From a virus: a DNA stretch of 64,000 bases. Each line of letters starts with the position of its first letter. The stretch's first letter is position 1. The DNA lies in IMG/VR virus record IMGVR_UViG_3300011441_000007. The stretch is one strand, 5' to 3'. Positions 41,464 to 62,300 of the stretch are shown here, one piece after another. A program made the translations under genes and the position numbers. Below the pieces are notes generated by a model that searched no databases, was not told the origin of the DNA, and saw only the letters and a list, made by a program, of their open reading frames with translations.

Positions 41464-42168
41464 ATGCTACCTAAAATTACAACCCCAACTTCCAAAATCA
41501 AAATCCCAAGCACAGGTAAGACTGTTTCTGTGCGTCCGTTCCTTGTGAAAGAGGAAAAGATTCTGTTGATGGCCAAACAATCTGGAACCTATACAGATAT
41601 ACTAACTTCAATCAAACAAGTTGTGACCAATTGTCTTCTTGAAAAAATAGATGTTAATAAGCTTGCGCTATTTGATGTTGAATATCTGTTTCTCAAGCTA
41701 CGTTCCATTTCTGTCAATAATATCGTCAAAGTCACATACAAAGACAACGAAGATCAAAAAGAATATCCTTTTGAAATTGACTTGGATAAAATAGAAATCA
41801 AATTCCCTGATAAAGTAGAGAAAGTTATTGTTTTGAATGACGAATACTCTCTACTAATGAAATGGCCAGAAGCTTCTCTTTATTCAGAAAAGGAAGTTCA
41901 ATCTGACGATCCAGCATTGAATATTGAATTCTTTCTTGCTAATACCATTGATAAGATTTGTCAAGGTGATAAGATGATTGATTTGAAAATGGCATCCAAA
42001 CAAGAAATCACAGAATTTATTGAAGGTATTCCAGCAAAGGCTTATGAGCAAATCAAAGAGTTTTGGAATACTATACCTAAATTACATTATGAAATCAAGT
42101 ATACAAATGCCAATGGAACAGAAAGAAGTATTGTCATGGAGAAGTTGACCGATTTTTTTACTTTTTAA
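41464..42168 (+). CDS. baseplate hub subunit-like protein (234 aa)
   Basis: Sits between the tube-like gene and the tape-measure-like gene. No motif. Confidence 0.4.
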   Translation: MLPKITTPTSKIKIPSTGKTVSVRPFLVKEEKILLMAKQSGTYTDILTSIKQVVTNCLLEKIDVNKLALFDVEYLFLKLRSISVNNIVKVTYKDNEDQKEYPFEIDLDKIEIKFPDKVEKVIVLNDEYSLLMKWPEASLYSEKEVQSDDPALNIEFFLANTIDKICQGDKMIDLKMASKQEITEFIEGIPAKAYEQIKEFWNTIPKLHYEIKYTNANGTERSIVMEKLTDFFTF

Positions 42169-46328: not shown

Positions 46329-47655
46329 TGGCAATCTGAAAATTGTGATTTGTCCAAGTAGAACAAGTCACATCTTTGGGCCGCAAAAAAAAAGCGGACT
46401 TTCAACCTCTAATACACTTCTCCTAACAACGCTGGCAACTGGTGTCTGTCTTTGTTCTCCAGCTGCAATTTCAGCGATTCATAGAGAAGTATTTGTTATG
46501 CCTGGAAAGTTAACAGGCGATGATGTGCGCGCGGGCAAGACCAGTTGGTTTGGCCAATATGGTTATGGAAAATACCGTGATGGTATGAATAACCATGTCT
46601 GGCGCGACAGAGGAGACAATGGGCAGACAGCTTCAGGAATGCCTCAAACTACTCCTGGAATTGCTTTGCCTACCAGAAAGCATCTAAAACATTGGTTTGA
46701 AGTAGAATTGAAAGGGAAAAAATATACAGTTCAACAAACTGATGTTGGACCAGCGAAATGGACAGGACGAAAAATTGATATAAATGCGCCGCTGGCAGAT
46801 ATGGCTGGCTGGACTCCAAAAAACTTCCCAACTGATTCTGTTGTCAAGTATCGCTATCTTGGGCCTCCTGGAAAAATGCCCCAACAAGATTTGCCGGCTA
46901 ACGTTGCCGGTGTAACTGCGCCCAAACTAGCGTTACTGGAAAAGCAAAAGCAATCAGTTGATCTAGCCGAAAAGGCTGTGACAGCTGGAATGGGTAAACA
47001 ACATATTGATGACATGAACCTTGGGCTTCCGCCTCCAGTTCCCAAAGTGAAAACCCTGAAGGATATTCCAGCAAAGATTGTTGGTAAGATTCCTTATGGA
47101 ATGCATCCGGTCATTCTAAAAAGCATGACCGAAGCAAGTAAGTTGCTCCCAGATGGATGGAACGTTCGCTTTGATAATGCGAAACGTAATCATTCCTCTG
47201 TTGGAAGCCGTTCTTATCATATTAAAGAGGATCAGTATGGAGCGCTCGCCGTTGATATCCAGTTAATTAACAATGGGAAAAAACTCCCTATGTTGCAGAG
47301 TCCTAAACACTTTGCGGTATATCGGGACTTCATGCACTATACGAAAAAATTACAATACGAACTATTCCCTGATTATCGCGGGCGCGGGCGATGGGGTGGT
47401 TACTTCACGTCTGGTGTGTCTCAAGACTTGATGCACTACGATCTAGGACCGGAGCGCGGCACACAAGCCGGCAATTGGGAGAAGGGGCTAAAATCGGGCT
47501 ACAGACACTTCGGGCTCCCTGGCGACGTGGGCAAGGGGATGGGCACGCTCGCCGGTTTCAGCCTACCCATGCCGATCCCGCCTGAGATGCGCACGGCCTC
47601 AATTGACTTCGTGCGCGAGGGCAGGATGGGTGGTAGACGACATTCGCGCAGGTAA
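46315..47655 (+). CDS. peptidoglycan hydrolase: RlpA-like DPBB domain + peptidase M15-like domain
   Basis: GKTSWFGQYGYG...GQTASGMP...PGIALP...KYTVQQTDVGP matches the RlpA/DPBB pattern. The C-terminus SYHIKEDQYGALAVD...WGGYFTSGVSQDLMHYDLG is paralogous to the M15 motif of the previous gene. AAGGGA RBS. The last 270 nt are markedly GC-rich. Confidence 0.5.
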   Translation: MHRTDGNLKIVICPSRTSHIFGPQKKSGLSTSNTLLLTTLATGVCLCSPAAISAIHREVFVMPGKLTGDDVRAGKTSWFGQYGYGKYRDGMNNHVWRDRGDNGQTASGMPQTTPGIALPTRKHLKHWFEVELKGKKYTVQQTDVGPAKWTGRKIDINAPLADMAGWTPKNFPTDSVVKYRYLGPPGKMPQQDLPANVAGVTAPKLALLEKQKQSVDLAEKAVTAGMGKQHIDDMNLGLPPPVPKVKTLKDIPAKIVGKIPYGMHPVILKSMTEASKLLPDGWNVRFDNAKRNHSSVGSRSYHIKEDQYGALAVDIQLINNGKKLPMLQSPKHFAVYRDFMHYTKKLQYELFPDYRGRGRWGGYFTSGVSQDLMHYDLGPERGTQAGNWEKGLKSGYRHFGLPGDVGKGMGTLAGFSLPMPIPPEMRTASIDFVREGRMGGRRHSRR

Positions 47656-47679
47656 CAACCCGCACCTTACTTGCGCGAT

Positions 47680-47737
47680 CCGACTGACAGGGAGCCCTGC
47701 GTTACCCCCCAAGCCCTGTCAGTCGGACTTTTTTTCC
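47680..47737 (+). terminator. rho-independent terminator
   Basis: 13-bp stem CCGACTGACAGGG/CCCTGTCAGTCGG followed by ACTTTTTTT, 25 nt after the stop. Confidence 0.6.
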
Positions 47738-48034
47738 TTTCGTGTTAGCTTTTTCTCTTTACGCCAGTTTACAAGTTGGCCTCTATAGAGCCGTACACCT
47801 TTCCCATGTAATAGAATATGTTGAGGGTGCGCATTTAGCCATTCTCTCAACCACCTTGCGTGATTTGATCGCCTTTCTCCCATGCATCAACTCCCGGTCC
47901 TTTCATCTCAACAGGTCCGAATTTTTCTCTTTCTTTTTCTTGCTCTTCCCGAACGATAGCGCATAGATGGCTACAGTTTCCTTTACAGACTGCATTTAAA
48001 TCTACGCGGCATTTCAGAGTCACAGATTCTTTAT

Positions 48035-48646
48035 TCATGTCTTCACCGATGAATCTGAAGCTGCCTGTGCGACTTGCGTGTCTTTATCTACTTTTAAATC
48101 TTTGAAATGGCGCCAAGCGATGGCATCATATATCTTACCCAGACGCCTAACCACAAAATCAACAAAGTCAGTGATCAGGTCTGAGAAGACATACCAAAAC
48201 ATACTGGCCCACCAAAGAACGATCCATGTCATAAACTTTCTTTTGTTTTGAAGAGCAATAGGAACATACTGTTCATATTTTGGTATTGGGTAGTTGGGAG
48301 TTTGTGGGTCTTTATTTACATTCCAACGAGCAACCCTTTCTATTTCTATATTATATTTTTTTCGGTTTTCGGCACCATATCGGTCCCATTTAAACATACT
48401 CCAAAGGATGCCAACTAAAATATAACAAACGGCATATACCAAAACCAGAGTTAGATTAGCCCAAGCAAAAGTAATAACATTTACGCCATGGAAAAACCAA
48501 AGAGCAACTGCTCCGATTACGAGTGGAAAAAAGGCAAATTCAGGTTTTTCAAATTCAGCCAAAATAATAGCGACAGCTAAAATAAAGAATATTGCAAGCC
48601 AAGCGAGGATGCCTAAAGCAAATAATGCGACGATAGGTTCAAACAT
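48035..48646 (-). CDS. polytopic membrane protein (203 aa)
   Basis: Four or more hydrophobic helices (IVALFALGILAWLAIFFILAVAIILA; LVIGAVALWFF; LTLVLVYAVCYILVGILW; WIVLWWASMFWYVF). Confidence 0.5.
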   Translation of the reverse strand: MFEPIVALFALGILAWLAIFFILAVAIILAEFEKPEFAFFPLVIGAVALWFFHGVNVITFAWANLTLVLVYAVCYILVGILWSMFKWDRYGAENRKKYNIEIERVARWNVNKDPQTPNYPIPKYEQYVPIALQNKRKFMTWIVLWWASMFWYVFSDLITDFVDFVVRRLGKIYDAIAWRHFKDLKVDKDTQVAQAASDSSVKT

Positions 48647-48667
48647 AATACTTTCTCCTATTTGAGG

Positions 48668-48994
48668 TTAGGTTTGTTTGCGGATGATAAGGTAATCAAC
48701 CCGCTTTTTTTCTTTGGTACGGTAGTTTTTAACTTTACTTTTCAAATAAATGCGTAATTTAGCATCATCCCATTCAACGATATTGGACACTTCCCGGATG
48801 ATTTTGTATTTTTCATTATCAAAAATGTTGTTGCCGGTATCTGTGAAAAATTCTTTTATTTCTTTCTCAATTTGTTTAAGGTGACGTAAACGGGCACGAG
48901 TTTGAATAAAAATATCAATAATTTCGTCCAGTGAAGCGCCATCTAGCTTATGCCGTAGCGAGTAGTCTCGCGAAGTTCTTACGCGCTCTTGCAT
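48668..48994 (-). CDS. hypothetical protein
   Basis: 108-aa charged ORF. Confidence 0.35.
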   Translation of the reverse strand: MQERVRTSRDYSLRHKLDGASLDEIIDIFIQTRARLRHLKQIEKEIKEFFTDTGNNIFDNEKYKIIREVSNIVEWDDAKLRIYLKSKVKNYRTKEKKRVDYLIIRKQT

Positions 48995-49166
48995 CCCCGT
49001 GATCCTTCAGTTTTAGGAGTTCCCCAGAATGGAAGCGTAGCACATGTCGGATGTAGACTTCAACCGACATTTCATACTTGGCTGCAAGAAAACGAAGGTC
49101 TTTCATATCCTCCGCATCCATCTCTAGTTTAAGATGGACTTTAGATATGTTTAATTTCTTTTTCAT
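48948..49166 (-). CDS. ribbon-helix-helix (CopG/Arc-like) candidate
   Basis: From MKKKLNISKVHLKLEMDAEDMKDLRFLAAKYEMSVEVYIRHVL: a beta-strand plus two helices typical of RHH proteins. The ORF is open to 49190. Confidence 0.35.
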   Translation of the reverse strand: MKKKLNISKVHLKLEMDAEDMKDLRFLAAKYEMSVEVYIRHVLRFHSGELLKLKDHGDARARKNFARLLATA

Positions 49167-49173
49167 GGTTCTA

Positions 49174-49542
49174 CTACTCCTGATAGACATAATATGGCAT
49201 TCCTCCTGGGAGCGCTGCCCACATGGCTTTTGGTAGGCAAAGCTTTACTTTACCAGCTGCCATACCTAATAGAAACAATTGAGACATTGTTTGATGTAGT
49301 CCTGTCCATTGCTCATCGTTTCTATCTTGACATGCAGCTAGAAAGGAGCATCCACCTCCACCAGATTGACGGAATGAATCTGGTAATCCATCCAGCATTT
49401 TGATAATCTGCTCTTCTTTACCTTTCACATTCAATAAAGCATCAAAAACAATTCCTTCCACTTTTACAGCATCTTTGTCTTCTGGATTCCGAAGACAGCT
49501 TTCAAAAAGCTCTACAACTTCGGTTGGATTGATCAGTGGCAT
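49174..49542 (-). CDS. hypothetical protein
   Basis: 122-aa ORF. Confidence 0.4.
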   Translation of the reverse strand: MPLINPTEVVELFESCLRNPEDKDAVKVEGIVFDALLNVKGKEEQIIKMLDGLPDSFRQSGGGGCSFLAACQDRNDEQWTGLHQTMSQLFLLGMAAGKVKLCLPKAMWAALPGGMPYYVYQE

Positions 49543-49543
49543 A

Positions 49544-49744
49544 TCATTCCTCCGTTCTAATCACGGCAACTAAACGATAGTTATCCGGTCTGCCGCTTTG
49601 TTGGGTATGGGTGTTTACATAGGCTTCAGCTTCCTCTTTAGTAAACTCATAAGGCAAGCCTCCAGTAGGCTTTACCTTAGCCCAATGCCTATTACTCAAT
49701 TTCACTTCTACATTGTATTTCATCACACTTCTCTCAATTTCCAA
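49544..49744 (-). CDS. hypothetical small protein
   Basis: 66-aa ORF, tightly packed. Confidence 0.35.
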   Translation of the reverse strand: MEIERSVMKYNVEVKLSNRHWAKVKPTGGLPYEFTKEEAEAYVNTHTQQSGRPDNYRLVAVIRTEE

Positions 49745-49905
49745 GATTTTTGCATGGCAGCAATTACTCCAGATACAATAAACGTCTCATACCAATATGA
49801 AGGATAACCACCTTTATGGGCAGCTTTTACTTTATCACAATTTTCGTTCCATTGTTTTTCTGTTTTGGAACTTGTCATTAATTTGATTACTTCATCTTTT
49901 GTCAT
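49723..49905 (-). CDS. hypothetical small protein
   Basis: 60-aa ORF. Confidence 0.3.
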   Translation of the reverse strand: MTKDEVIKLMTSSKTEKQWNENCDKVKAAHKGGYPSYWYETFIVSGVIAAMQKSWKLREV

Positions 49906-50161
49906 TTTTTTTCTCTTTTACCAGCCTAATTGTATCAAGGTGGACATGATAATAACCATAACCCTCAAAACAAACAATGCTATGATTGGGGCCGAATGGT
50001 CTAGACTTGCCAACCTTTCCGATACTTCCCTTTGGTATCGGAACCATATGTTCTCCGCGCGAATGTTCCTTTACCAAACACACCATTTTACCGGGTATTT
50101 GTTTCGGTTTCCGCACGACACGGAGTTTGGACGCATAGTCTATGAAACTCATGTGGTTCAT
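49892..50161 (-). CDS. hypothetical protein
   Basis: 89-aa ORF. Confidence 0.35.
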   Translation of the reverse strand: MNHMSFIDYASKLRVVRKPKQIPGKMVCLVKEHSRGEHMVPIPKGSIGKVGKSRPFGPNHSIVCFEGYGYYHVHLDTIRLVKEKKNDKR

Positions 50162-50175
50162 TGTGCCGTTTAGTT

Positions 50176-50279
50176 GTGGACCGGGGCAATCCCCTGTCTG
50201 CGATGGGTTGTCCAGCCGGCCCGTGTGTGAGGCTTACCCAGAGAACCCGAATATGGGGAAAGGAGCATCCCCGGTCCAC
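50176..50279. other. GC-rich long inverted repeat (GTGGACCGGGG ... CCCCGGTCCAC, 82-nt spacer): candidate structured RNA
   Basis: 11-bp perfect arms seen directly, in a GC-rich noncoding stretch between genes. Confidence 0.35.
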
Positions 50280-50287
50280 AATTCCTT

Positions 50288-50446
50288 TCAGCTGTTGAGG
50301 ACGATGGCAGCGATCAGCGTCACTACAATCACGGCAACCGATAATAGAGCAGTTATCCCGATCTTATCGGACTCGCGTAAGTGCCGCAACGTATACACAT
50401 CATCAACACCTCGGTTGAAGTGTCGTCTGTCAAACCTTTTTACCAT
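50288..50446 (-). CDS. small C-terminal-TM protein (52 aa), toxin-like or holin-like
   Basis: MVKRFDRRHFNRGVDDVYTLRHLRESDKIGITALLSVAVIVVTLIAAIVLNS with a strong SD GAAGGAGG 4 nt upstream. Below the ORF-track cut-off. Confidence 0.35.
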   Translation of the reverse strand: MVKRFDRRHFNRGVDDVYTLRHLRESDKIGITALLSVAVIVVTLIAAIVLNS

Positions 50447-50594
50447 CGGAACCTCCTTCTAAAGTCCAGCCCATTCCGTCTAGAATCATATCCCAAATCA
50501 TCCCCATATGATATTGGAAATGGGCACCATATATCTTGACACCAATGTTATTAGCCAGTTGTAGATGTATCAGGATTTTTTGAGCATCAGACAT
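50430..50594 (-). CDS. small ORF (54 aa) overlapping the start of the TM ORF
   Basis: MSDAQKILIHLQLANNIGVKIYGAHFQYHMGMIWDMILDGMGWTLEGGSDGKKV. Its 3' end contains the SD of the downstream ORF. Confidence 0.25.
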   Translation of the reverse strand: MSDAQKILIHLQLANNIGVKIYGAHFQYHMGMIWDMILDGMGWTLEGGSDGKKV

Positions 50595-50703
50595 TAGCCT
50601 GCTCCATATCTGCCGACTGAGATACCAGTGCCGCGCACTTGATTGCGATAAGTCGCATGATGAAACTTGCCTGCGGACCGCAATGCTTTAAGTTCCACAA
50701 TGG

Positions 50704-51471
50704 TCATGACACGTTTCCGATCACGCCTTGGCGGCCAACTTGAGCGTCCTGGCGCAAGGCTACGTTGTTACCAGCTTCCTGCCCAGCGGCATAAGCGTTC
50801 TGGTCCTTAATCCTCTTGATAGATTGGCCTCCAGACGTGATATTGTGTGTCTGAGAGAGTTTGGCAAAGATGGACGTTACAACGTCATTCCGAATCACCA
50901 TCAGGGCATTGCGCGAGGGAACGGCAGCGGTGCGCTCTTTGATGATTTCTTCCAGCCGCTCATTAATCCGATCAGCCATTCCGATCAGAAAAGACGCGCG
51001 CAGTTTCCGACCATGAGCAACACCACGGTTTTTGTGAAGATAGCTGGCAAACTCAGTTTCCATGGCAATGCGAATCATATCGGTCATGGCATGGGCGAAT
51101 TCCGTATCAGTTTCCGAACCCAAATAAATAAGTTCTCCGCCGTCACCATTATTATTGAATCTCATGGTCCAAACTTTGCAATCAAAAAACGTCGCAATCG
51201 TCACAATGCAATCATGAACCTCATGAAAAGAACGACGACGCTTGGAACCACGCACATAACCTTTCTTGCCGCGCATCCCATAACGTTCCGCACGCACCTC
51301 ATTTTCAATGTCGGTATAGGTTAGATCGTAGTCGGCCATAAGTTTGCCAGCTAATGCAGCGGCATTCATAGCTTCGCCTTCTGTCGCGCCGCGCTCAACT
51401 GTTAATGATAGGAGCGCACGAATACGCTTCTTAATCTGTTCTCTTTTTGTGCTGTTTGAATCGGTCATCAC
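50704..51471 (-). CDS. DUF2786-like N-terminal domain protein (phage/plasmid family)
   Basis: REQIKKRIRALLSLTVERGATEGEAMNAAALAGKLMADYDL fits the DUF2786 consensus (kIrkLLala...neaEA..A...A.eLm.ky.l). Lies in a GC-rich island. Confidence 0.5.
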   Translation of the reverse strand: MMTDSNSTKREQIKKRIRALLSLTVERGATEGEAMNAAALAGKLMADYDLTYTDIENEVRAERYGMRGKKGYVRGSKRRRSFHEVHDCIVTIATFFDCKVWTMRFNNNGDGGELIYLGSETDTEFAHAMTDMIRIAMETEFASYLHKNRGVAHGRKLRASFLIGMADRINERLEEIIKERTAAVPSRNALMVIRNDVVTSIFAKLSQTHNITSGGQSIKRIKDQNAYAAGQEAGNNVALRQDAQVGRQGVIGNVS

Positions 51472-51550
51472 ACGGGCCTTTCAGTTGGGTAGTTTGCTCA
51501 AGACATACCCTAGACTAAATAAAGTCCCATGTCTAATCACATCTTTGTGA

Positions 51551-51790
51551 TCAATGTTTCGTCTCATTTTTTTCAGCCATTTCTTCCATTTCTTTTAGAA
51601 TTTCTTGATACATTTTTTTTGTTTCTTCAATAATATTTTCAGAATCATGTTCAAGAATAATCCTTACAATATCAGATATGGTTTTTGGAACAATATCATT
51701 CAAAGCTTCAATTGTAAGTTTATTTTCTCTCTCTAAATTATGTGCTAGTTTCATAATAATCAAAAAAATGAGGGTGCAGCCCACATCCAT
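51551..51790 (-). CDS. hypothetical acidic protein
   Basis: Start at MDVGC. The ORF extends to 51922, but its 5' part overlaps the next gene and shifts composition. Confidence 0.3.
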   Translation of the reverse strand: MDVGCTLIFLIIMKLAHNLERENKLTIEALNDIVPKTISDIVRIILEHDSENIIEETKKMYQEILKEMEEMAEKNETKH

Positions 51791-51864
51791 ATCGGAAGCA
51801 GACTGCCCCTGAATTTGGCCAGCAATTCTGGAAGCTAATTCCAGTTGCTTCTGCGATAGAAACT

Positions 51865-52287
51865 TCAATTGGATTTGGGCCTCAAGACGAATTCCATTCC
51901 CATGGCATCGGCTATGGCGCACGTTGTTGTCATATAGGGGCCATAGACATAATACATATACTTTCCGCCCCGACCGTAATTGAGAAAACGGTCCACCGTA
52001 TTTTTGCTGATTGAGCAGGCCGGCGTGGAATTGATTTTCTTGGTGATTTCTTTTGTTGTTGTTTTCAAATGAATGTTGCGGCGAGCTAATTCGTCTTGAA
52101 CATCGCGGACCATTTTCTTGTATTTGTTTGTGTCCTTGAAAGTCCGTCTTGGAATGTCGTGTTGGGATGGCGGTTGATGTTGGTTTTTTTTGACACGGTA
52201 TGTGGTGACAGCTTCATTCTGCTTGAGCATGGTATTCTCCACTTGGGCGTTGGTATTGATTCCCCGATAGGCTTTAGGTTTAGTCAA
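51865..52287 (-). CDS. hypothetical protein (140 aa)
   Basis: ORF in the GC-rich island. Confidence 0.35.
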   Translation of the reverse strand: MTKPKAYRGINTNAQVENTMLKQNEAVTTYRVKKNQHQPPSQHDIPRRTFKDTNKYKKMVRDVQDELARRNIHLKTTTKEITKKINSTPACSISKNTVDRFLNYGRGGKYMYYVYGPYMTTTCAIADAMGMEFVLRPKSN

Positions 52288-52577
52288 AACAGGTTAACGG
52301 GAAGAGGGCATTTGGGGAAAGCTAAGCTGTGCAGGATATACGCCAAACCACCTGGAGGCTCCCGGAGGTCTTCCCGGAGTTTTAGAGATGGTTGTGTACC
52401 GATTCGCGCGAACCTCTTCCCGCCCCTGCCTGAATCTCACATTGCACACCTCCAATAGCTTGGAACATAGAAGGAGACGAGTGGACGCTACCATGATCGG
52501 TTGACAATAGCAAGCCCCTTCCTACCATCCTTCATGAAAAAGATGCAAGGTGAAAGAACCCCAAACAAAGTCCCCTA

Positions 52578-52606
52578 TTGACAAGCCATTGTTTTGTCTC
52601 TATATA
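52578..52606 (+). promoter_or_regulatory. sigma70-like promoter TTGACA-N17-TATATA for the H-NS-like gene
   Basis: Perfect -35 with a 17-nt spacer. GGAGAAG and the ATG at 52639 follow. Confidence 0.45.
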
Positions 52607-52638
52607 GAGTGCTCTGTTCCAACTCTGGAGAAGTCCGT

Positions 52639-53004
52639 ATGAACAAGAATGACATAGAGAGGTTTGTGAAGCTGGCGAAAGGCGCCGATCTTGCTGCTCT
52701 GGATAGCGCTCTTGAGCAGCTAACTGGCATCGCGGAAGAGATGCGAGTGAAAGAACGTGAAGGACTGAAGGAAAACATTGAGGCCATGGCAGCTAGGGCC
52801 GGCACCAGCATTGCCGAGCTTTATGGCAAGGTCAAAGCTCCTGGCGTCCGCGCTGCCAAATACCGCAACCCTGCCAATCTGTCTCAAACCTGGACCGGCG
52901 CCGGCCGTATGCCGGGCTGGATGACAGAAGCCAAAACGAAAGGAATCGACCCCGAAACATTCAAGATCAAGGATGTAGCGGCGGCAGAAGCCGAAACCGA
53001 ATAA
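52639..53004 (+). CDS. H-NS family nucleoid-associated / xenogeneic-silencer-like protein
   Basis: The C-terminus KYRNPANLSQTWTGAGRMPGWM matches the H-NS DNA-binding motif (TWTGQGRTP core; the KYRNP.N...TW.G.GR.PGW form recalled from alpha/beta-proteobacterial H-NS/HvrA/BpH3-like proteins). The N-terminus is a predicted coiled coil. Start taken at MNKND downstream of the promoter. Confidence 0.7.
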   Translation: MNKNDIERFVKLAKGADLAALDSALEQLTGIAEEMRVKEREGLKENIEAMAARAGTSIAELYGKVKAPGVRAAKYRNPANLSQTWTGAGRMPGWMTEAKTKGIDPETFKIKDVAAAEAETE

Positions 53005-53029
53005 ACAACAATCCGTCACAGCTGCCATA

Positions 53030-53076
53030 AAAAAGGGTGCTTCCTTTTTAATCCGGGAAGCACCCTTTCTTTTTCT
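53030..53076. terminator. bidirectional rho-independent terminator
   Basis: Stem GGGTGCTTCC/GGAAGCACCC flanked by A5 on the 5' side and TTTCTTTTTC on the 3' side, between convergent genes. Confidence 0.6.
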
Positions 53077-53110
53077 AAACAAGGCTTGGTTTTCTGTGTT
53101 TAGAAAAAAA

Positions 53111-53971
53111 TTATTGATTAACTAATTTCTGAAACAGGCTTACAGTTTTTTGATGCTCATCGTCTGTTTCATCAACATCAAAAGGAGGAGCATCATCAAC
53201 CACAGCTGATGTTACTCGTTTTCCAGTTGTTCCTAGAACACGATCCAAACGCGCTTTTAGATCATCATATGTTTTGAAGTTCTTTCCAGATAGAAATTCC
53301 TGAAGAGAATATTCCTGATTCCAAATCTTCTCTAGTTCCTCATCGTTTTCAGTAAGAGGAGAAGGTGGTTTCACAAACTCTGATTGATCATAGTTCCGAT
53401 AACCTTCAACCGTACAGATTTTCAGACGCAATGGAACACCCGCCCAAAAATCAAAAGGATTGATTGGTGGTTCATCTGGAAACTGCGGAATCATTAGGTT
53501 GTTAAGTTTATCAAAGATTTTCTTACCATAACGGAACAAGAAAACTTTACCTTCGTTTTCAGGATGTGCGATATCCTTCATAACTAGGACATTAGAAATA
53601 TATGTTAGCTTGCGCTTTTGTTTACGGGCGACTTCCTTATCGGAATCTAAACCGCTATTCCAAAGAACGGAATTGTGCTCGCTAACAGGATCAGGTTTGC
53701 CAAGTGTAGTTAGAGAGTTTTCAATATACCAACTGCCAGTTTTGCCTTGAAAAGAGTGGGACCAAATGCGGACAAAAGGAACCTCTTCCCCTTTGGGTGC
53801 TGGTAGGAAACGAATTACAGCATAACCATTTCCAGCTTTGTCAACATCAGGATACCAAATCCTGTCATCTTCAACGAATTTTGGGGCAGCTTGTTTTTGA
53901 AGTTCGGTAGTAAGAGTTTCTAAAGATTTTTCTCTGTTATTCTTTAGGTCTAAGAAAGATGTAATAGTCAT
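53111..53971 (-). CDS. ssDNA-binding protein gp32
   Basis: [14 protein letters not shown] and [20 protein letters not shown] match T4 gp32 ([34 protein letters not shown]). Acidic C-terminal tail. Cys residues of the T4 Zn site are absent. Confidence 0.85.
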   Translation of the reverse strand: [286 protein letters not shown]

Positions 53972-54006
53972 ATATTCGTATTTTTCTCCTGTTTTATTAT
54001 TTGTTT

Positions 54007-54014
54007 TGTTTATA
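54007..54014 (-). promoter_or_regulatory. late-promoter-like TATAAACA 36 nt upstream of the gp32 ATG
   Basis: 7/8 match to T4 late TATAAATA on the minus strand, with appropriate spacing. Confidence 0.35.
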
Positions 54015-54134
54015 TGTTTTTGGCGGCCGGATCAGGTCGCGAATCTGAATCTCCCAGCTAAAAACTTCTTCCGAAGTCTCTGCTCTACTAGGGCTTTACT
54101 TTAAGCTATCCAGCCATGTTTGTATTTAGACAAC

Positions 54135-54494
54135 TTATGTCAAGTTTATACCATAAATTCCAGCAATCGCTTCCTCAATGTTATTGTAAATCACCACGCC
54201 ATTAATTTCTGTGATATAAGATACTTTTTTGTTTTCCAAAATTGTGGCCGAGCGTTTGTTATCTACATCAATCAAAACATTTCCTACAATAGTCGTAAAA
54301 CCAGCTTTTCTGGCAAGATCAGTCATAAATTTTATATCGTAATCTCGCCACCAATCACGTAATTGTAAAATAGAATAAATGGAACGAAAAGCCTCAGATG
54401 GCCCATGCGTCAGTTCCCTAACATTCAACTTCAACGACAAGCTTGAAACAGGGATTGCCAAGAGCGAAATGGTAAATGTGCGACGGTTTATCAT
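54135..54494 (-). CDS. hypothetical protein with N-terminal signal/TM
   Basis: MINRRTFTISLLAIPVSSLS... Confidence 0.4.
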   Translation of the reverse strand: MINRRTFTISLLAIPVSSLSLKLNVRELTHGPSEAFRSIYSILQLRDWWRDYDIKFMTDLARKAGFTTIVGNVLIDVDNKRSATILENKKVSYITEINGVVIYNNIEEAIAGIYGINLT

Positions 54495-54600
54495 TCATCT
54501 GCTCCATGGCATGGTTTGTTTAGTTCTTTTTGAGTTGGTTTATTCCTTACTGCTATAATCCCACATTTGATACAATAACGCCAGTTCAGAAAATGTCCAC

Positions 54601-55164
54601 TCAATTTGTGTGGTTTTCCTTTTGCCATCGGTTGATGATCATTTCTCTGAACTTTGACCAATCATACTTGATAAACGGCGCATACTTCTTGAGACGCGAC
54701 ATATAGAGAGGATTGTTCAGATTGAGATTATAATACTCCCAAATCTGTAGCTTGTCAACTAGAATTGTTATTGTTTCGGGAGAAATTTCTTTTCGTGTAT
54801 AGAGTTCTTGAATATATGGCAATCTTCCACCAGATGGTTGAAAATTGGTATCTAAATCTTGTTGTAGTTTACCCAAATCTTCTTTGAATACATAGGCCAA
54901 GGATTGTTGCCGGCGCTGCCAATCCAAATATCTATCTTCCGTCATATCTCTTATCCAACGGTCCTTATCAATGAGATTCGCTAGAAGAAAATTATGTGGG
55001 TCTTTATGCTTGGAAAGTTTTTGAAATGTGAATTTTTCTGGTCGCTTCTCAAATGAGGATGGGGATGCATTTATCTTTCCATTGTATTTAAAATAATCGT
55101 AAGCCTCATGATTGAAGTGTTGTTTCAAAGCGAGATAATCAACATATATCTCAAAGGAGTTCAT
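54601..55164 (-). CDS. helicase loader gp59
   Basis: YDYFKYNGKINASPSSFEKRPEKFTFQKLSKHKD parallels T4 gp59 (YDVIKYNWCMRVSDAAYQKRRDKYFFQKLSEKYK). Adjacent to gene 32 as in T4. Confidence 0.6.
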   Translation of the reverse strand: MNSFEIYVDYLALKQHFNHEAYDYFKYNGKINASPSSFEKRPEKFTFQKLSKHKDPHNFLLANLIDKDRWIRDMTEDRYLDWQRRQQSLAYVFKEDLGKLQQDLDTNFQPSGGRLPYIQELYTRKEISPETITILVDKLQIWEYYNLNLNNPLYMSRLKKYAPFIKYDWSKFREMIINRWQKENHTN

Positions 55165-55601
55165 AGTTCTAGCCGAACTTTCCCTTTTTTTATGAGTTTA
55201 GCGATTTCAGGAAACGGCACACTGGTATCGTTTGCATCAACTAGGCTGAATAATGCCTCATTATCATCGCTTGTATTTACTATTGATAAAATCAGCATAC
55301 CATTGTTATCAGCAAATCCAAGCCACTTCCTTACTTCATATGGTAACACTCCGGTAAGCTTTTGACCATTGGAGCCAATGTAATAATAAACGCCGCTAGT
55401 AGTATCCTTTCTCTTTCCGAGGTTAATTCCGTTCTCCATTGCCAATTCACAGGCAACTCCTAAACAGCAATAATACATAGTTTTTTCTTCTTCATAACAC
55501 AGGTATCTTCTACCTTGTTTGAATCTATTTGATTCCAAAGCATCAGCTAACAGTTTACGATTAGCTGCTGTTTCTTTCTTTGTATATTCTGTTCTGTTCA
55601 T
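55161..55601 (-). CDS. diverged member of the KxHW...CxxGA family (paralog 4)
   Basis: RYLCYEEEKTMYYCCLGVACELA and a C-terminal SDDNEALFSLVDA echo the family motifs. Confidence 0.35.
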   Translation of the reverse strand: MNRTEYTKKETAANRKLLADALESNRFKQGRRYLCYEEEKTMYYCCLGVACELAMENGINLGKRKDTTSGVYYYIGSNGQKLTGVLPYEVRKWLGFADNNGMLILSIVNTSDDNEALFSLVDANDTSVPFPEIAKLIKKGKVRLEL

Positions 55602-56005
55602 GTGTTTGTTTCATCCCATGGACGCGGATAGTTGTTGATATAGGCAAAGGCTTCCACATTTTCTGGCATATGCTCTATATGCCCGCGAGCAAACGCCACA
55701 TAACCTACCCAAGGTTGTTCATTTCTGATTAACGTTCTGACGAATTTGTTCATGCTGGCGCCTGTGGTCCAAACATCATCCACAATCAGCCATGTGGGTG
55801 CCCCAACGGTCACATAAGGCAAGAAAGCATCCCGCAGAGCCCAGCCGCCTGAAGGAACGCCATAGACCTGTCCAAACGCCCCAATCTTCACATGAGACGT
55901 ATGAGCGATGCAATCCCAATCCTCTTTTGTGAGGGCATCACACTCTATCTTCCAATCCAGCAACAAGCCGGCAGCGGAAGTGAATTGTCCAAGTTTGAAA
56001 AGCAT
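55598..56005 (-). CDS. phosphoribosyltransferase (type I PRTase) domain protein
   Basis: The PRPP-binding motif TWLIVDDVWTTGASM matches VLIVDDVLTTGGT. Confidence 0.55.
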   Translation of the reverse strand: MLFKLGQFTSAAGLLLDWKIECDALTKEDWDCIAHTSHVKIGAFGQVYGVPSGGWALRDAFLPYVTVGAPTWLIVDDVWTTGASMNKFVRTLIRNEQPWVGYVAFARGHIEHMPENVEAFAYINNYPRPWDETNT

Positions 56006-56235: not shown

Positions 56236-56549
56236 GCCTTACAAGCAGCTTCATAATATTCATTTTTATAAATTTTCAAAGATGATCCATCAAGACTTAA
56301 TTCTAATATCATATCCTTATTGCGAACTTTGATAGATTGTTGTTCATGAATATTTATTAAACATATATCATTCTTGTATTTCAAACAATCATCTATTTCT
56401 TTTTTTCTTTGTTCCTCAGTTTCAATTTGTTTAGAATAACCTCCACCATTTAAAGAAATAAGACTTACGCTCACCCAAAAAGGTAATGTAGCTGTGCGCA
56501 TATAAGAGCGAGCCGTCAGAGCATCAGTGAAAGGACCATATGATTTCAT
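56229..56549 (-). CDS. hypothetical protein
   Basis: 106-aa ORF. Confidence 0.35.
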   Translation of the reverse strand: MKSYGPFTDALTARSYMRTATLPFWVSVSLISLNGGGYSKQIETEEQRKKEIDDCLKYKNDICLINIHEQQSIKVRNKDMILELSLDGSSLKIYKNEYYEAACKAC

Positions 56550-56800
56550 ATCGGGAGCCTGCTTGTTTTCTTCTTGATGAGGTTTAGGTTTTCAGCCTCT
56601 ATTTCCAACTGCGATTTGATCACATCGTTCTTACTCACGATTTCCGCCAAAACCTCAATCTCAATACCTGACACTTGAGCATAGTGCACAATACCATCAA
56701 TGTAAGAAATACCATTGGCCTTCACCAATTTTTCTATTTCTTTGATTACATTATTAGAGAGATTAAATCTATCTAAATCAACATCACTTTTCACTTTCAA
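56546..56800 (-). CDS. hypothetical small protein
   Basis: 84-aa ORF. Confidence 0.3.
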   Translation of the reverse strand: MKVKSDVDLDRFNLSNNVIKEIEKLVKANGISYIDGIVHYAQVSGIEIEVLAEIVSKNDVIKSQLEIEAENLNLIKKKTSRLPI

Positions 56801-57254
56801 ATCTTTCTAAAGCTATCAACGCTTCTTCAACTGAAGGAAAACACCCAATATGTATTTGTTTTTTGTTTACTGTTTTTTGAACCCGAAATGTGCGAGTGCT
56901 GCCACATACCGGATGAATATTGGAAGGTAGCTTGCATTTTCGTCTTGATACCTTTCGATTCTCATTTTGGGCAGACTTGGTTACTTCTCGCAAGTTATCC
57001 CATCTGTTATCGTCCGGTATGCGATTTTTATGATCTATTTCATATCCTAATTTTGGCCAACTTCCAGTCATCCAAAACCAAATGATATTAGCTTCCTGGT
57101 GCTGTTTTCCGTTCCATCTGACATAACGATATCCGGTTTGTTTATGGCGAAACCCAGCCCTATCACCAGCTTTTATTCTTCCGCCAGCATTTCTAATCCA
57201 ATATAATTTACCATTATCTGGATTATATGTCAACCATTCTTTTATATTCTTCAT
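56784..57254 (-). mobile_element. free-standing HNH homing endonuclease with AP2-like DNA-binding domain
   Basis: GKLYWIRNAGGRIKAGDRAG...GYRYVRWNGKQHQEANIIWFWMTG is AP2-like. YEIDHKNRIPDDNRWDNLREVT is the HNH motif (HNH_3). The arrangement is typical of T4-family Mob-type endonucleases. Confidence 0.65.
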
Positions 57255-58313: not shown

Positions 58314-58389
58314 TGGCTCCTCAGGTAGGAATCGAACCTACAACCTCCACCTTAACAGGGTGTCTCTCTACCAATTGAGATACTGAGGA
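58314..58389 (-). tRNA. tRNA-Asn (anticodon GTT), CCA encoded
   Basis: Manual fold: acceptor TCCTCAG/CTGAGGA, D-arm TCTC-AATTGGTA-GAGA, anticodon loop CTGTTAA, T-arm GTAGG-TTCGATT-CCTAC, discriminator G, then CCA. One A·G mismatch closes the anticodon stem. Confidence 0.75.
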
Positions 58390-60886: not shown

Positions 60887-61853
60887 TTAGTTGCTGCTAC
60901 CTGCTTTTGCCATCTCTGTTGCCAGTGCCATGGCCTTCAACTTCTTGCCTCTGTTGGCACCATACCAGTTGCTATTGAGGCGGGTTTCCGGGTTGCGGCC
61001 GATCACATGATCCAGGGTGAAAGTGACCGCATTGAAAGGTTGCCACCATGTTCCCTCTCCAAGTTCGGCGCCCGGTTGATTGGTGAGCGCCAGCGTGGCC
61101 ATCTCAGCCGCCCTAGAAATCTTCCTCTCGCTCTTCTCAGACACGGGGAAGATGGCATCAAAATAAGCCTTGACTTCCGCGTCTGTGAAACGCTTGCTGG
61201 CAAGGAATGCGGCAACTTCCTTATACTGGTCTGCACGGACATTGGCAAGCCCCATGGCCTCTTGTGCAGCACCCACATCAAAAGGTTTGGAGTGATTGAG
61301 GCGGACTTCATAATCCGCCTTTTCCCGCAAGCCCATCATGATTGTGTTTTCGCAGACAACGCGGGTTGCAATCAAGCGGATATCAACACGCTTACCATAG
61401 ATATGGGGATTAGAGAAGAGTAGATATTTGCGAAAAGTGTCTTTTCCTTTGAGGATAGAAAAATCACCTTCCAATCTGGCCAGCATCCAGATATGGGAGC
61501 CGCCATTCAAGGCGCCGGCCGTATCCATCTTGGCATGGCCTTCCACAACAAAGTCATGAAAAAAGTCGGCCACTGATTGATTTTGAACTGGATTCCATTC
61601 CTTGGAAGTCGTGCAGAATTCTTTCATGTCAGACTTGCGGACCAACGCCTCATCCATAGAGCGAAAGACCTTATCGCTGTTTGGATCGCCATAGAACAGC
61701 GGCATCTTTTCCACTTCCCAATCCAGCCCAGCCGCGATCAGCATTTCTTTGGCTGACAGGTCGTTAGAAACCTTGGTGCCAAGCCGATGCCAAGGCGTCT
61801 CGCCGGCATATGCCATCGCTGCCTTGCCACGGATCATTTCAAGATTGTGTGAC
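60887..61853 (-). CDS. conserved hypothetical protein (possibly DUF932-like phage/plasmid family)
   Basis: Start at MSHNLEM with an AAGGAG RBS. The ORF is open to 62173, but the upstream part looks non-coding. GC-rich. The family assignment is a guess from its size and composition. Confidence 0.35.
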
Positions 61854-62039
61854 ATTTCCAACTCCTTAGTTTGGTGAACGTCTCTGATGTATGAAAGATA
61901 GGGCATATCTAGAGTGAAGTCAAGTGCCTTGTAAAAATAATTTGTAGAACGTTGTTCACGTTCACGGAACGTTTGTTCATTGTTTGTTCCCGTTTTGTTC
62001 TCATCGCACAAAATGTGCCTGTGTGAGTTCCTACTTTGT

Positions 62040-62300
62040 TTAGGGCAGCTTGCTTTGCACGTTTGGGTCGTATTTCGCACTGAACATAAGCTTCGGATAC
62101 CGCGCGAATGGTTTATTATAACATTCAAATATTTTCTCTGTATGATTGTAATGAGCTTTGCCATAGGTAGCAAAGCATCTATCTGTTTGTTCCTGGAGCC
62201 AAATCATTTCTGGATTTTTTGCACAACTTGTTAATAACATTATCGCGCAAAAAATACAAATCCCAATCCAAACGAAAGTCAAAATTTTGAAAGTCATTTT
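62040..62300 (-). CDS. small lipoprotein
   Basis: MTFKILTFVWIGICIFCAIMLLTSC gives a signal peptide with an LTSC lipobox. GAGGAAAT RBS. Confidence 0.45.
   Translation of the reverse strand, partial: KMTFKILTFVWIGICIFCAIMLLTSCAKNPEMIWLQEQTDRCFATYGKAHYNHTEKIFECYNKPFARYPKLMFSAKYDPNVQSKLP

What the first reader, a model, noticed from the sequence alone, without database searches (positions are those of the whole stretch)
50160..53090. GC-rich accessory island carrying an H-NS-like silencer and a DUF2786-like gene
Between about 50.1 and 53.1 kb the composition is visibly GC-richer. It encodes a DUF2786-like protein, two small ORFs and a plus-strand H-NS family protein (KYRNPANLSQTWTGAGRMPGWM) with its own sigma70-like promoter and a strong bidirectional terminator. 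A phage H-NS could silence host or competing foreign DNA, or modulate host xenogeneic silencing. The KYRNP...TWTG.GR.PGW form of the motif resembles H-NS-like proteins of alpha/beta-proteobacteria as I remember them, which hints at the host lineage and at host-derived acquisition.
Basis: partly seen in the sequence, partly recalled or inferred. Interest (0 to 1): 0.6.

Follow-up and report, generated by a model that had tools for sequence, protein, structure and literature searches.

The report
H-NS gene module in T4-like phage
An uncultured T4-like phage carries a real, selectively maintained copy of the bacterial DNA-silencing protein H-NS beside its gp32 gene, but it sits in a gene block shared with related phages rather than in a freshly acquired island, and phage-borne H-NS genes are already known.

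Summary
Window 50160-53090 is the GC-richest 2.9 kb of the 64 kb (0.470 against 0.401 ± 0.020). It encodes a 121-aa H-NS family protein (52639-53004, +). Pfam PF00816 scores 50.8 bits against a cutoff of 25.6, and the C-terminal domain of the predicted structure best matches solved H-NS and Bv3F C-terminal domains. It also encodes a DUF2786+DUF7168 protein (50704-51471, -). The H-NS gene has a TTGACA-17-TATATA promoter-like site, a GGAGAAG ribosome-binding site and a strong two-way terminator shared with gp32.

The "recent host-derived island" reading is only partly right. A sister phage (gp32 87.5% identical) has the same gene order and the same GC-rich genes. At least eight lineages of uncultured T4-like phages carry an H-NS gene next to gp32. 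No cellular homologue exceeds about 50% identity.

dN/dS of about 0.2 shows the gene is kept under selection. The most likely function is an early-expressed protein that binds AT-rich DNA and interferes with xenogeneic silencing. Whether it silences or counter-silences cannot be decided from sequence.

This is a new member of a known kind, since phage-encoded H-NS has been described since 2011. Interest is moderate.

The parts
52639..53004 (+). H-NS family protein gene, 121 aa. It has an N-terminal helical region (residues 3-62) and a C-terminal H-NS DNA-binding domain (residues 73-110) with the motif TWTGAGRMPGW.
   Evidence: Pfam PF00816 50.8 bits against a cutoff of 25.6. PDB sequence hits to Ler, Bv3F, H-NS and StpA C-terminal domains. 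AF2 model pLDDT 77; best Foldseek PDB hits are 2L93 and 2L92, weak by E-value (0.08-0.14). dN/dS 0.20. The identical protein occurs on 19 metagenome contigs.
52578..52633 (+). Sigma-70-like promoter (TTGACA 52578-52583, 17-nt spacer, TATATA 52601-52606) and ribosome-binding site GGAGAAG (52627-52633) of the H-NS gene.
   Evidence: Read from the sequence. Both boxes and the RBS are conserved in L171 and L191. By my reading, a TTGACA box also lies upstream of H-NS in L221, L224 and L227.
53029..53071 (.). Two-way intrinsic terminator hairpin shared by the convergent H-NS and gp32 genes.
   Evidence: Inverted repeat I5. Fold energies -22.9 and -26.6 kcal/mol with U-rich tails on both strands. The hairpin is conserved in L171 and L191.
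52288..52577 (.). Conserved intergenic region between the divergent partner gene and the H-NS gene. It includes a 126-nt stretch (52297-52422) closed by the 10-bp inverted repeat CGGGAAGAGG/CCTCTTCCCG.
   Evidence: Blocks are conserved with L171 and L191. It folds on both strands. There is no covariation support (term -0.1) and no Rfam hit. Function unknown.
51865..52287 (-). Partner gene transcribed divergently from H-NS: 121 aa from ATG 52230, or 140 aa from TTG 52287. No known family.
   Evidence: Homologues in L171 (74%) and L221 (42%), in the same position. No Pfam, PHROG, NCBIfam or PDB match. GC3 0.53. dN/dS 0.23.
51551..51922 (-). AT-rich ORFan cassette (123 aa, or 105 aa from a later start) inside the module.
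   Evidence: GC 0.28-0.36. No family match. No homologue in L171, which has an unrelated 97-aa ORF at that place. Nothing lies between the two neighbouring genes in L221.
50704..51471 (-). DUF2786 + DUF7168 protein gene (254/255 aa), function unknown.
50430..50594 (-). 54-aa ORF, conserved in the sister phage.
   Evidence: 69% aa identity to L171. No family match.
50288..50446 (-). 52-aa ORF with a hydrophobic C-terminal stretch; coding status uncertain.
   Evidence: ORF list. L171 has no homologue there; by my reading of its sequence it has a shorter hydrophobic ORF at that place.
50162..50292 (.). GC-rich (0.59) non-coding element closed by a perfect 13-bp inverted repeat (50174-50186 / 50269-50281).
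   Evidence: I9. Fold -54.6 kcal/mol, z -2.9 on the minus strand. Absent from L171. No Rfam hit.
53111..53971 (-). gp32 single-strand DNA-binding protein gene (context; the conserved neighbour of the H-NS gene).
   Evidence: PF08804 150 bits, phrog_224 E 1.5e-108. The best cultured-phage match is cyanophage P-RSM6 at 62%.

Best explanation
The window comes from an uncultured T4-like myovirus. Between its replication genes (gp33, gp59, gp32) and its baseplate genes it carries an accessory gene block that is specific to its lineage but inherited, not newly inserted. The constant element of that block is a full-length, short-type H-NS family protein.

Shown here:
- The C-terminal domain is an H-NS DNA-binding domain that keeps the conserved Gly-Arg of the minor-groove loop (TWTG-A-GR-MPGW).
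- The N-terminal 60 residues are predicted to be helical.
- The gene is under purifying selection.
- It has its own host-type (sigma-70-like) promoter on the strand opposite to all its neighbours, and a strong terminator.
- An H-NS gene sits next to gp32 in at least eight related phage lineages.

Inferred:
- The protein is made early, by unmodified host RNA polymerase.
- It oligomerises through its N-terminal helices and binds AT-rich DNA through the C-terminal loop, as H-NS does.
- It thereby takes part in the host's xenogeneic-silencing system. The most likely role is to add silencing capacity on AT-rich host loci such as defence islands and resident prophages, as was proposed for phage EPV1.

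The GC-richness belongs to individual genes (H-NS, partner gene, DUF2786). It is most simply a lasting signature of origin from a GC-richer gene pool, probably alphaproteobacteria and their phages.
For: Family membership: Pfam PF00816 above cutoff. Sequence matches to solved Ler, Bv3F, H-NS and StpA C-terminal domains. The best Foldseek PDB matches of the AF2 model are 2L93 and 2L92, with target TM-scores of 0.63-0.68 but weak E-values. The whole-library HMMER search found 1390 relatives at E <= 0.001.

Full-length architecture: helices at 3-12, 16-53 and 58-62, a linker, then the C-terminal domain.

Selection: dN/dS 0.20 against both L171 and L191.

Own expression signals: promoter and RBS; terminator.

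Inherited module: same synteny and same GC-rich genes in sister phage L171-L173. The same phage with the same block was found on 19 contigs.

Recurrent gp32-adjacent H-NS: L221, L222/223, L224, L226/227, L228, L229.

Gene pool: the named cellular relatives are mostly Alphaproteobacteria. The only cultured phages with a homologue of the DUF2786/DUF7168 protein infect Rhodobacteraceae or, for DSS3_MAL1, have no host given in the record; one of them (MD18) also has an H-NS-like ORF.

Precedent: phage EPV1 H-NS and the defence-silencing hypothesis (PMC3097231); review of horizontally acquired silencers (PMC7074111).
Against: No experiment exists; DNA binding, oligomerisation and silencing are all inferred from family membership.

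The N-terminal domain does not reach the Pfam cutoff (PF22470 16.9 bits against 24.5) and has no significant match to solved H-NS N-terminal domains.

The host is unknown, so its GC content and its own silencers are unknown.

The phage genome itself is AT-rich (GC 0.40). An AT-preferring binder would therefore be expected to bind phage DNA at least as well as host DNA, which fits the rival readings better.

The best solved-structure sequence match is Ler, an anti-silencer.

The first position of the Q/R-G-R loop is Ala in this phage, although it is Gln or Arg in the other lineages.
Confidence: 0.45

Rival explanations
1. Ler-like counter-silencer. The phage protein uses an H-NS-type DNA-binding domain with a divergent oligomerisation domain. 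It occupies the AT-rich phage DNA, or forms mixed oligomers with host H-NS, so that host silencers cannot shut down phage promoters.
For: The best PDB sequence match is the Ler C-terminal domain (E 1.2e-5, 29 bits, against 14.8 bits for Salmonella H-NS). The loop reads A-G-R, with neither Gln nor Arg at the first position, as in Ler's V-G-R. The N-terminal region does not match H-NS N-terminal profiles or structures. The phage genome is AT-rich (GC 0.40), so it would be a target of silencers. From general knowledge, T4 (Arn, MotB) and T7 (gp5.5) invest in countering H-NS; MotB is covered in PMC7827196.
Against: Ala in the loop is peculiar to this phage; the sister phage has QGR and other lineages have QGR or RGR. 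The protein must first be transcribed from the very DNA that would be silenced. There is no evidence that the host has an H-NS-type silencer.
Confidence: 0.25
2. Self-directed phage chromatin protein. It coats or bridges the phage's own AT-rich DNA, either to time transcription (shut-off of sigma-70-type early promoters) or to organise and protect replicating DNA. This would explain why it is kept beside gp32, gp59 and gp33.
For: The position next to gp32 is conserved in at least eight lineages. In every lineage the H-NS gene has higher GC3 than gp32 on the same contig (0.57-0.80 against 0.25-0.64). That would keep the gene itself free of AT-directed binding. The upstream region is long and conserved.
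Against: 80 other T4-like loci with gp32 lack any H-NS ORF within 10 kb, so the protein is not needed for the T4-type replication or transcription programme. The GC3 excess is equally explained by foreign origin. Phage-only monophyly is not supported (2% bootstrap).
Confidence: 0.2
3. Recent host-derived accessory island: a block captured lately from the current host's chromosome or plasmid.
For: The block has a compositional and GC3 excess. Cellular relatives are mostly Alphaproteobacteria. Variant L191 shows that the H-NS cassette (about 52170-53140) recombines as a unit: it is about 88-90% identical there, inside flanks that are 97-100% identical.
Against: The same block with the same GC pattern occurs in a sister phage that is only 63-74% identical in these genes. 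The nearest cellular proteins reach about 50% identity at most. There are no border repeats, integrase or tRNA. All 19 contigs of this phage carry the gene.
Confidence: 0.07
4. Passenger gene without function in the phage.
For: It lies in a plastic junction full of ORFans.
Against: dN/dS is 0.20, and the ORF, promoter, RBS and terminator are intact and conserved across diverged phages.
Confidence: 0.03

Closest known systems
H-NS of phage EPV1 (podovirus of Candidatus Accumulibacter; Skennerton et al. 2011, PMC3097231)
   Same: A full-length H-NS homologue encoded by a phage, placed among early genes, known only from metagenomes, and with an inferred function (silencing of host defence loci).
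   Different: The EPV1 gene is closely related to its host's hns, which was used to name the host. Here no close cellular donor exists (about 50% identity at most). The phage here is a T4-like myovirus, and the gene sits in a locus that recurs in at least eight phage lineages.
Short (about 100-125 aa) H-NS family proteins of Alphaproteobacteria (Paracoccaceae/Rhodobacteraceae, Hyphomicrobiaceae) and Bv3F of Burkholderia (PDB 2L92)
   Same: Same length class, same AAKYRNP...TWTG-x-GR-x-P-x-W C-terminal motif, and an N-terminal long helix.
   Different: Identity is only 30-50%. The loop has Ala instead of Arg or Gln. The gene is encoded by a phage with a 40% GC genome.
Ler (LEE-encoded regulator of attaching and effacing E. 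coli; PDB 2LEV)
   Same: It gives the best sequence match among solved structures, and it also lacks Gln/Arg at the first loop position (VGR against AGR). Ler is an H-NS family member that acts as an anti-silencer (general knowledge; listed in PMC7074111).
   Different: The similarity is confined to about 40 residues of the C-terminal domain. There is no evidence for anti-silencing here, and the Ala is not conserved in sister lineages.
Plasmid-encoded H-NS homologues Sfh (R27), Pmr (pCAR1), Acr2 (IncA/C), Sfx (IncX) (PMC7074111, PMC11796372)
   Same: Full-length H-NS paralogues carried by mobile elements, which interact with the host silencing network.
   Different: Their proposed 'stealth' role protects the fitness of a long-term host. 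A T4-type phage, which is expected to be lytic, has no such need. There is no close sequence relationship.
T4 and T7 anti-H-NS proteins (T4 Arn and MotB, T7 gp5.5; PMC7827196, PMC6070864)
   Same: Phage early functions aimed at the H-NS system.
   Different: Those proteins are inhibitors or co-binders unrelated to H-NS in sequence. This phage encodes an H-NS homologue itself.

Membership tests
H-NS family (Pfam Histone_HNS, PF00816) | C-terminal DNA-binding domain matches the family profile above the curated cutoff. | tested here: met
   50.8 bits against a cutoff of 25.6, E 1.4e-13, residues 73-110 covering profile positions 1-38 of 38. A profile of 50 relatives hits the StpA, Ler, H-NS and Bv3F C-terminal domains in the PDB at E 8e-8 to 2e-6.
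H-NS family (Pfam Histone_HNS, PF00816) | Conserved core motif TWTG-(Q/R)-GR-x-P with the minor-groove Arg. | tested here: met
   The sequence is TWTGAGRMPGW. W85, G87, G89, R90 and P92 are invariant or nearly so in 21- and 50-sequence alignments. The first loop residue is Ala here; it is Gln in L171 and L221 and Arg in others. Ler has Val at that place.
H-NS family (Pfam Histone_HNS, PF00816) | Fold of the C-terminal domain: two short strands, a helix and a short helix. | tested here: met
   The AF2 model has pLDDT 84-91 over residues 71-110. The top Foldseek PDB hits are 2L93 (probability 0.97, target TM-score 0.63, E 0.08) and 2L92 (target TM-score 0.68, E 0.14), so the E-values themselves are weak.
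H-NS family (Pfam Histone_HNS, PF00816) | N-terminal coiled-coil dimerisation/oligomerisation domain. | tested here: inconclusive
   PF22470 scores 16.9 bits, below its cutoff of 24.5. There is no significant match to solved H-NS N-terminal domains. The AF2 model predicts helices at 3-12, 16-53 and 58-62, which is compatible with such a domain.
H-NS family (Pfam Histone_HNS, PF00816) | Preferential binding of AT-rich or curved DNA, and transcriptional silencing or hns complementation. | not testable with these tools
   This needs EMSA or ChIP and genetic complementation.
DUF2786/DUF7168 proteins (phrog_421) | Both Pfam domains above their cutoffs, in the usual order. | tested here: met
   PF10979 37.2 bits (cutoff 23.9) over residues 13-51. 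PF23771 68.6 bits (cutoff 25.5) over residues 74-184. phrog_421 E 2e-31.
Recently acquired genomic island | Deviant composition relative to the carrier genome. | tested here: met
   GC 0.470 against 0.401 ± 0.020. GC3 of the three genes is 0.49-0.56 against 0.34 ± 0.09.
Recently acquired genomic island | Absent from close relatives of the carrier. | tested here: not met
   It is present with the same order in sister phage L171-L173 (gp32 87.5%) and in all 19 contigs of this phage.
Recently acquired genomic island | Insertion signatures: flanking direct repeats, integrase or transposase, tRNA target. | tested here: not met
   There are no convincing flanking repeats and no recombinase family among the ORFs. 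The only tRNA is at 58314-58389.
Recently acquired genomic island | Identifiable close donor. | tested here: not met
   The nearest proteins outside this phage's own population are at most 49% identical in a library of 1.84 billion proteins. The sister phage's H-NS (63%) was found separately, by synteny. The best cellular loci are 46-53% identical over part of the length.

The most novel reading that the evidence does not exclude
H-NS next to gp32 is a long-standing, clade-wide early gene of a group of uncultured T4-like phages. It works on the phage's own AT-rich DNA, as a phage 'chromatin' protein that times early-promoter shut-off or shields phage DNA from host silencers. On this reading its persistently GC-rich coding sequence (GC3 0.57-0.80 in every lineage, always above gp32) is selected to keep the gene itself out of reach of its AT-seeking product.
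Probability: 0.2. Interest if true: 0.65.

Novelty: new member of a known kind. Interest (0 to 1): 0.4.

Why it matters
Phage-borne homologues of xenogeneic silencers are known, but none of the H-NS type has been tested. The best-known lytic coliphages (T4, T7) fight H-NS rather than encode it.

This work finds a full-length H-NS gene under selection at one fixed place, next to gp32, in at least eight lineages of T4-like phages. That gives a defined set of natural variants, with loops reading AGR, QGR and RGR and with or without the partner gene. These variants could be used to ask whether phages use H-NS to silence host defences, to counter host silencing, or to organise their own DNA.

For annotation, the result also shows that a compositional 'island' in a phage can be old and inherited.

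Tried and rejected
- Megablast of 49000-54500 against 50,697 phage records found no match. The phage has no cultured close relative.
- Rfam at E <= 1 over 47000-56000 gave only one chance-level hit.
- Structured-RNA idea for the 52297-52422 element. It folds in the three available variants, but RNAalifold gives a covariation term of -0.1 and the closing stem never varies, so I make no claim and built no covariance model.
- An 18-nt pattern scan of the metagenome collection gave 40 loci. Only three (L189, L191, L205) proved related; the rest had no similarity to the window and are probably chance matches.
- Idea that the divergently transcribed partner gene is a universal companion of H-NS. Rejected. 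Two unrelated partner families exist, other lineages have unrelated genes, and hhalign gives probability 0.1 between the two families. My impression that the partner has a helix-turn-helix is unsupported by Pfam, NCBIfam or PDB searches.
- Phage-only monophyly of the H-NS genes. A neighbour-joining tree of 89 sequences over 105 columns is unresolved: window+L171 84%, a five-phage group about 33%, all phage copies 2%. A first tree script timed out.
It was repeated with A2. That scan used a single motif pattern, so its taxon list is biased towards that motif.

Full report
CONTEXT. The window is part of a T4-like myovirus. gp32 lies at 53111-53971 (-), the gp59 helicase loader at 54601-55164 (-), and a baseplate hub at 41464-42168 (+), with several baseplate wedge proteins further left. 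A gp33-type late-transcription coactivator was called at about 56546-56794. Among cultured phages the best gp32 match is cyanophage P-RSM6 at 62%, and megablast finds no close relative. The same phage, at 98-100% nucleotide identity, occurs in IMG/VR and metagenome contigs. The identical H-NS protein is on 19 contigs.

THE OBSERVATION. Region 50160-53090 has GC 0.470. The mean of all windows of that size is 0.401 ± 0.020, only windows overlapping the region reach 0.470, and the highest value elsewhere is 0.443. The excess is patchy and gene-specific:
- IR element 0.59
- DUF2786 gene 0.49
- intergenic region 0.50
- H-NS gene 0.55
- the 123-aa ORF at 51551-51922 only 0.35, falling to 0.28 locally

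The excess is visible at third codon positions. H-NS has GC3 0.56-0.58, the 140-aa ORF 0.53 and DUF2786 0.49, against 0.34 ± 0.09 for 75 ORFs. Two genes outside the region are also outliers: DUF932 at 60887-62173 (0.54) and the ORF at 55598-56005 (0.49).

THE GENES.

H-NS (52639-53004, +, 121 aa):
- Pfam PF00816 gives 50.8 bits against a cutoff of 25.6.
- phmmer against the PDB aligns residues 72-113 with the C-terminal domains of Ler, Bv3F, H-NS and StpA. A 50-sequence profile does the same at E about 1e-7.
- An AF2 model built on 50 relatives (pLDDT 77) has helices at 3-12, 16-53 and 58-62, a linker, and a confident C-terminal domain. Its best Foldseek PDB hits are 2L93 (Salmonella H-NS C-terminal domain) and 2L92 (Bv3F), although their E-values are weak (0.08-0.14).
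- The N-terminal region is only weakly similar to the H-NS N-terminal profile (16.9 bits against 24.5). It has no significant solved relative.
- The minor-groove loop reads A-G-R here.

Other ORFs:
- a 121/140-aa gene transcribed divergently from H-NS (51865-52287, -), with no known family
- an AT-rich ORFan (51551-51922)
- small ORFs of 54 and 52 aa

EXPRESSION SIGNALS. TTGACA (52578-52583), a 17-nt spacer, TATATA (52601-52606), GGAGAAG (52627-52633) and ATG 52639 are read directly. They are conserved in the diverged relatives L171 and L191. A TTGACA box also precedes the H-NS gene in L221, L224 and L227. The hairpin at 53029-53071 is a good terminator on both strands, at -22.9 and -26.6 kcal/mol with U-rich tails. 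It is conserved in relatives. H-NS is the only plus-strand gene in a long run of minus-strand genes.

IS IT AN ISLAND?

Sister phage. Searching for relatives of the DUF2786 protein led to a sister phage (L171-L173). Its gp32 is 87.5% identical and it has the same order: gp32, convergent H-NS (63% identical), an intergenic region of about 390 nt, the partner gene (74%), an unrelated small ORF, DUF2786/DUF7168 (65%), and small ORFs. The same genes are GC-rich there: H-NS 0.53, DUF2786 0.52 and DUF932 0.52, in a contig of GC 0.42. The block therefore predates the split of these two phages.

More distant lineages. The best full-length hits of the window protein in a 1.84-billion-protein library are P0004, P0006, P0011, P0022 and P0040. 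With P0181, they all turn out to be encoded next to gp32 in further T4-like contigs: L228, L222/223, L224, L221, L226/227 and L229. Their gp32 identities to the window are 51-68%. L221 also keeps the partner gene and DUF2786, and it has a second H-NS copy beside DUF932.

Loci without it. None of 80 other gp32-bearing IMG/VR loci has any of the block's genes or any H-NS ORF within 10 kb. In those loci the gp32-baseplate junction is 3-6 kb long; in the window it is 10.9 kb. The junction is thus a plastic spot, and H-NS occupies it in one patchily distributed set of lineages.

Other tests. I found no border repeats, recombinase or tRNA. A neighbour-joining tree cannot decide between one old phage-borne gene and repeated captures at the same spot: window+L171 has 84% bootstrap, larger phage groups 33% or less, and all phage copies together 2%. 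In every lineage the H-NS gene has higher GC3 than gp32 on the same contig.

SELECTION AND EXCHANGE. dN/dS is 0.20 for H-NS, both against L171 and against L191. It is 0.17 for DUF2786, 0.23 for the partner gene, 0.056 for gp32 and 0.08 for gp59. The accessory genes are therefore functional but evolve faster than the core. Contig L191 is 97-100% identical to the window in the partner gene and gp32, but only about 88-90% identical across 52170-53140. The H-NS gene with its upstream region and terminator therefore moves as a recombination unit between related phages.

ORIGIN AND HOST HINT. The nearest named cellular homologues are mostly Alphaproteobacteria (Hyphomicrobium/Hyphomicrobiaceae, Paracoccaceae/Rhodobacteraceae). 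There are also some Massilia, Rhodocyclaceae and a few Gammaproteobacteria, at about 35-53% identity. The genome scan used one motif pattern and is biased towards it. The only cultured phages with a detectable homologue of the DUF2786/DUF7168 protein are Roseobacter phage CRP-738, DSS3_MAL1 and Phaeobacter phage MD18. MD18 also has an unannotated H-NS-like ORF. A 47%-identical DUF2786 homologue lies beside DUF932 and a MucR/Ros gene on a 60% GC contig. They do not identify the host.

MECHANISM. The following are shown:
- family membership of the C-terminal domain
- a full-length architecture
- purifying selection
- the gene's own promoter-like and terminator signals
- conserved genomic placement

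The following are inferred from what is established for H-NS family proteins (reviewed in PMC7074111 and PMC6936261): binding of AT-rich DNA through the Gly-Arg loop, oligomerisation through the N-terminal helices, and an effect on transcription.

For the biological role I rank three readings:
1. Added silencing of AT-rich host loci such as defence islands and prophages, the EPV1 hypothesis (PMC3097231).
2. A Ler-like counter-silencer that protects the AT-rich phage genome. Ler gives the best solved-structure sequence match, and the loop is AGR.
3. A self-directed phage chromatin or timing protein.

The AT-richness of the phage genome (0.40) argues that phage DNA is at least one of its substrates. 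That is why readings 2 and 3 together weigh as much as reading 1.

COMPARISON AND NOVELTY. Phage-encoded H-NS has been known since EPV1 (2011). It is also annotated in a few deposited phage records: Acinetobacter phage MD-2021a and Burkholderia phage BCSR5. The kind is therefore known. What I did not find in the searched literature is a T4-like phage group with H-NS fixed next to gp32, or any experimental test of a phage H-NS. The window's gene is a new member of a known kind. The recurrent locus and the persistent GC3 excess are the parts worth following up.

VERDICT. Interest is 0.4.

Noticed in passing
window 52297-52422: A 126-nt stretch upstream of the H-NS promoter is closed by an invariant 10-bp inverted repeat (CGGGAAGAGG/CCTCTTCCCG). 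The inner hairpin differs in sequence in the sister phage but still folds. There is no covariation support and no Rfam family. It could be a leader, a small RNA or a protein-binding region.
   Followed up: partly
window 50162-50292: A GC-rich (0.59) non-coding element has a perfect 13-bp closing inverted repeat (fold z -2.9). It lies between the 52-aa ORF and the 89-aa ORF and is absent from the sister phage L171.
   Followed up: partly
window 52170-53140 versus L191: Contig L191 is 97-100% identical to the window in the flanking partner gene and gp32, but about 88-90% identical across the H-NS cassette. It also shares with L171 a roughly 40-nt insertion after the terminator. This indicates cassette-wise recombination between related phages.
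   Followed up: partly
window 51551-51922: An AT-rich (GC 0.28-0.36) ORFan sits inside the GC-rich block. In L171 an unrelated 97-aa ORF takes its place, and in L221 there is nothing there. It is a small variable slot within the module.
   Followed up: partly
window 60887-62173 and 55598-56005; L221:11574-12977; L174:72-4809: DUF932 (TIGR03299) and a 135-aa ORF are also GC3 outliers (0.54 and 0.49), in the sister phage as well. DUF932 lies beside a second H-NS copy in L221. On a 60% GC contig it lies beside DUF2786, with a MucR/Ros gene about 2 kb away. This suggests a recurring association of DUF932, DUF2786 and a nucleoid silencer.
   Followed up: partly
window 56784-57254: An HNH_3 homing-type endonuclease gene lies next to the gp33-like gene. 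It is absent from the syntenic place in sister phage L171, so it looks like an insertion polymorphism.
   Followed up: no
L176 (Phaeobacter phage MD18, MT270409.1 23387-23686): A cultured roseophage has an unannotated H-NS-like ORF inside its tRNA array, and also a DUF2786/DUF7168 homologue at 79622-80344.
   Followed up: partly
proteins P0038, P0003, P0005, P0016, P0020: Some metagenomic proteins carry many tandem H-NS C-terminal-domain stretches: 11 in the 801-aa P0038, and 3 in each of the 277-396-aa proteins. This architecture looks unusual for the family to me.
   Followed up: no
window 53070-53108: A second, AT-rich hairpin (12-bp arms, -11.9 kcal/mol, z -5.1) lies directly after the gp32 stop codon, ahead of the shared terminator.
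   Followed up: partly
window 58314-58389: A single tRNA-Asn (GTT) gene lies on the minus strand.
   Followed up: no
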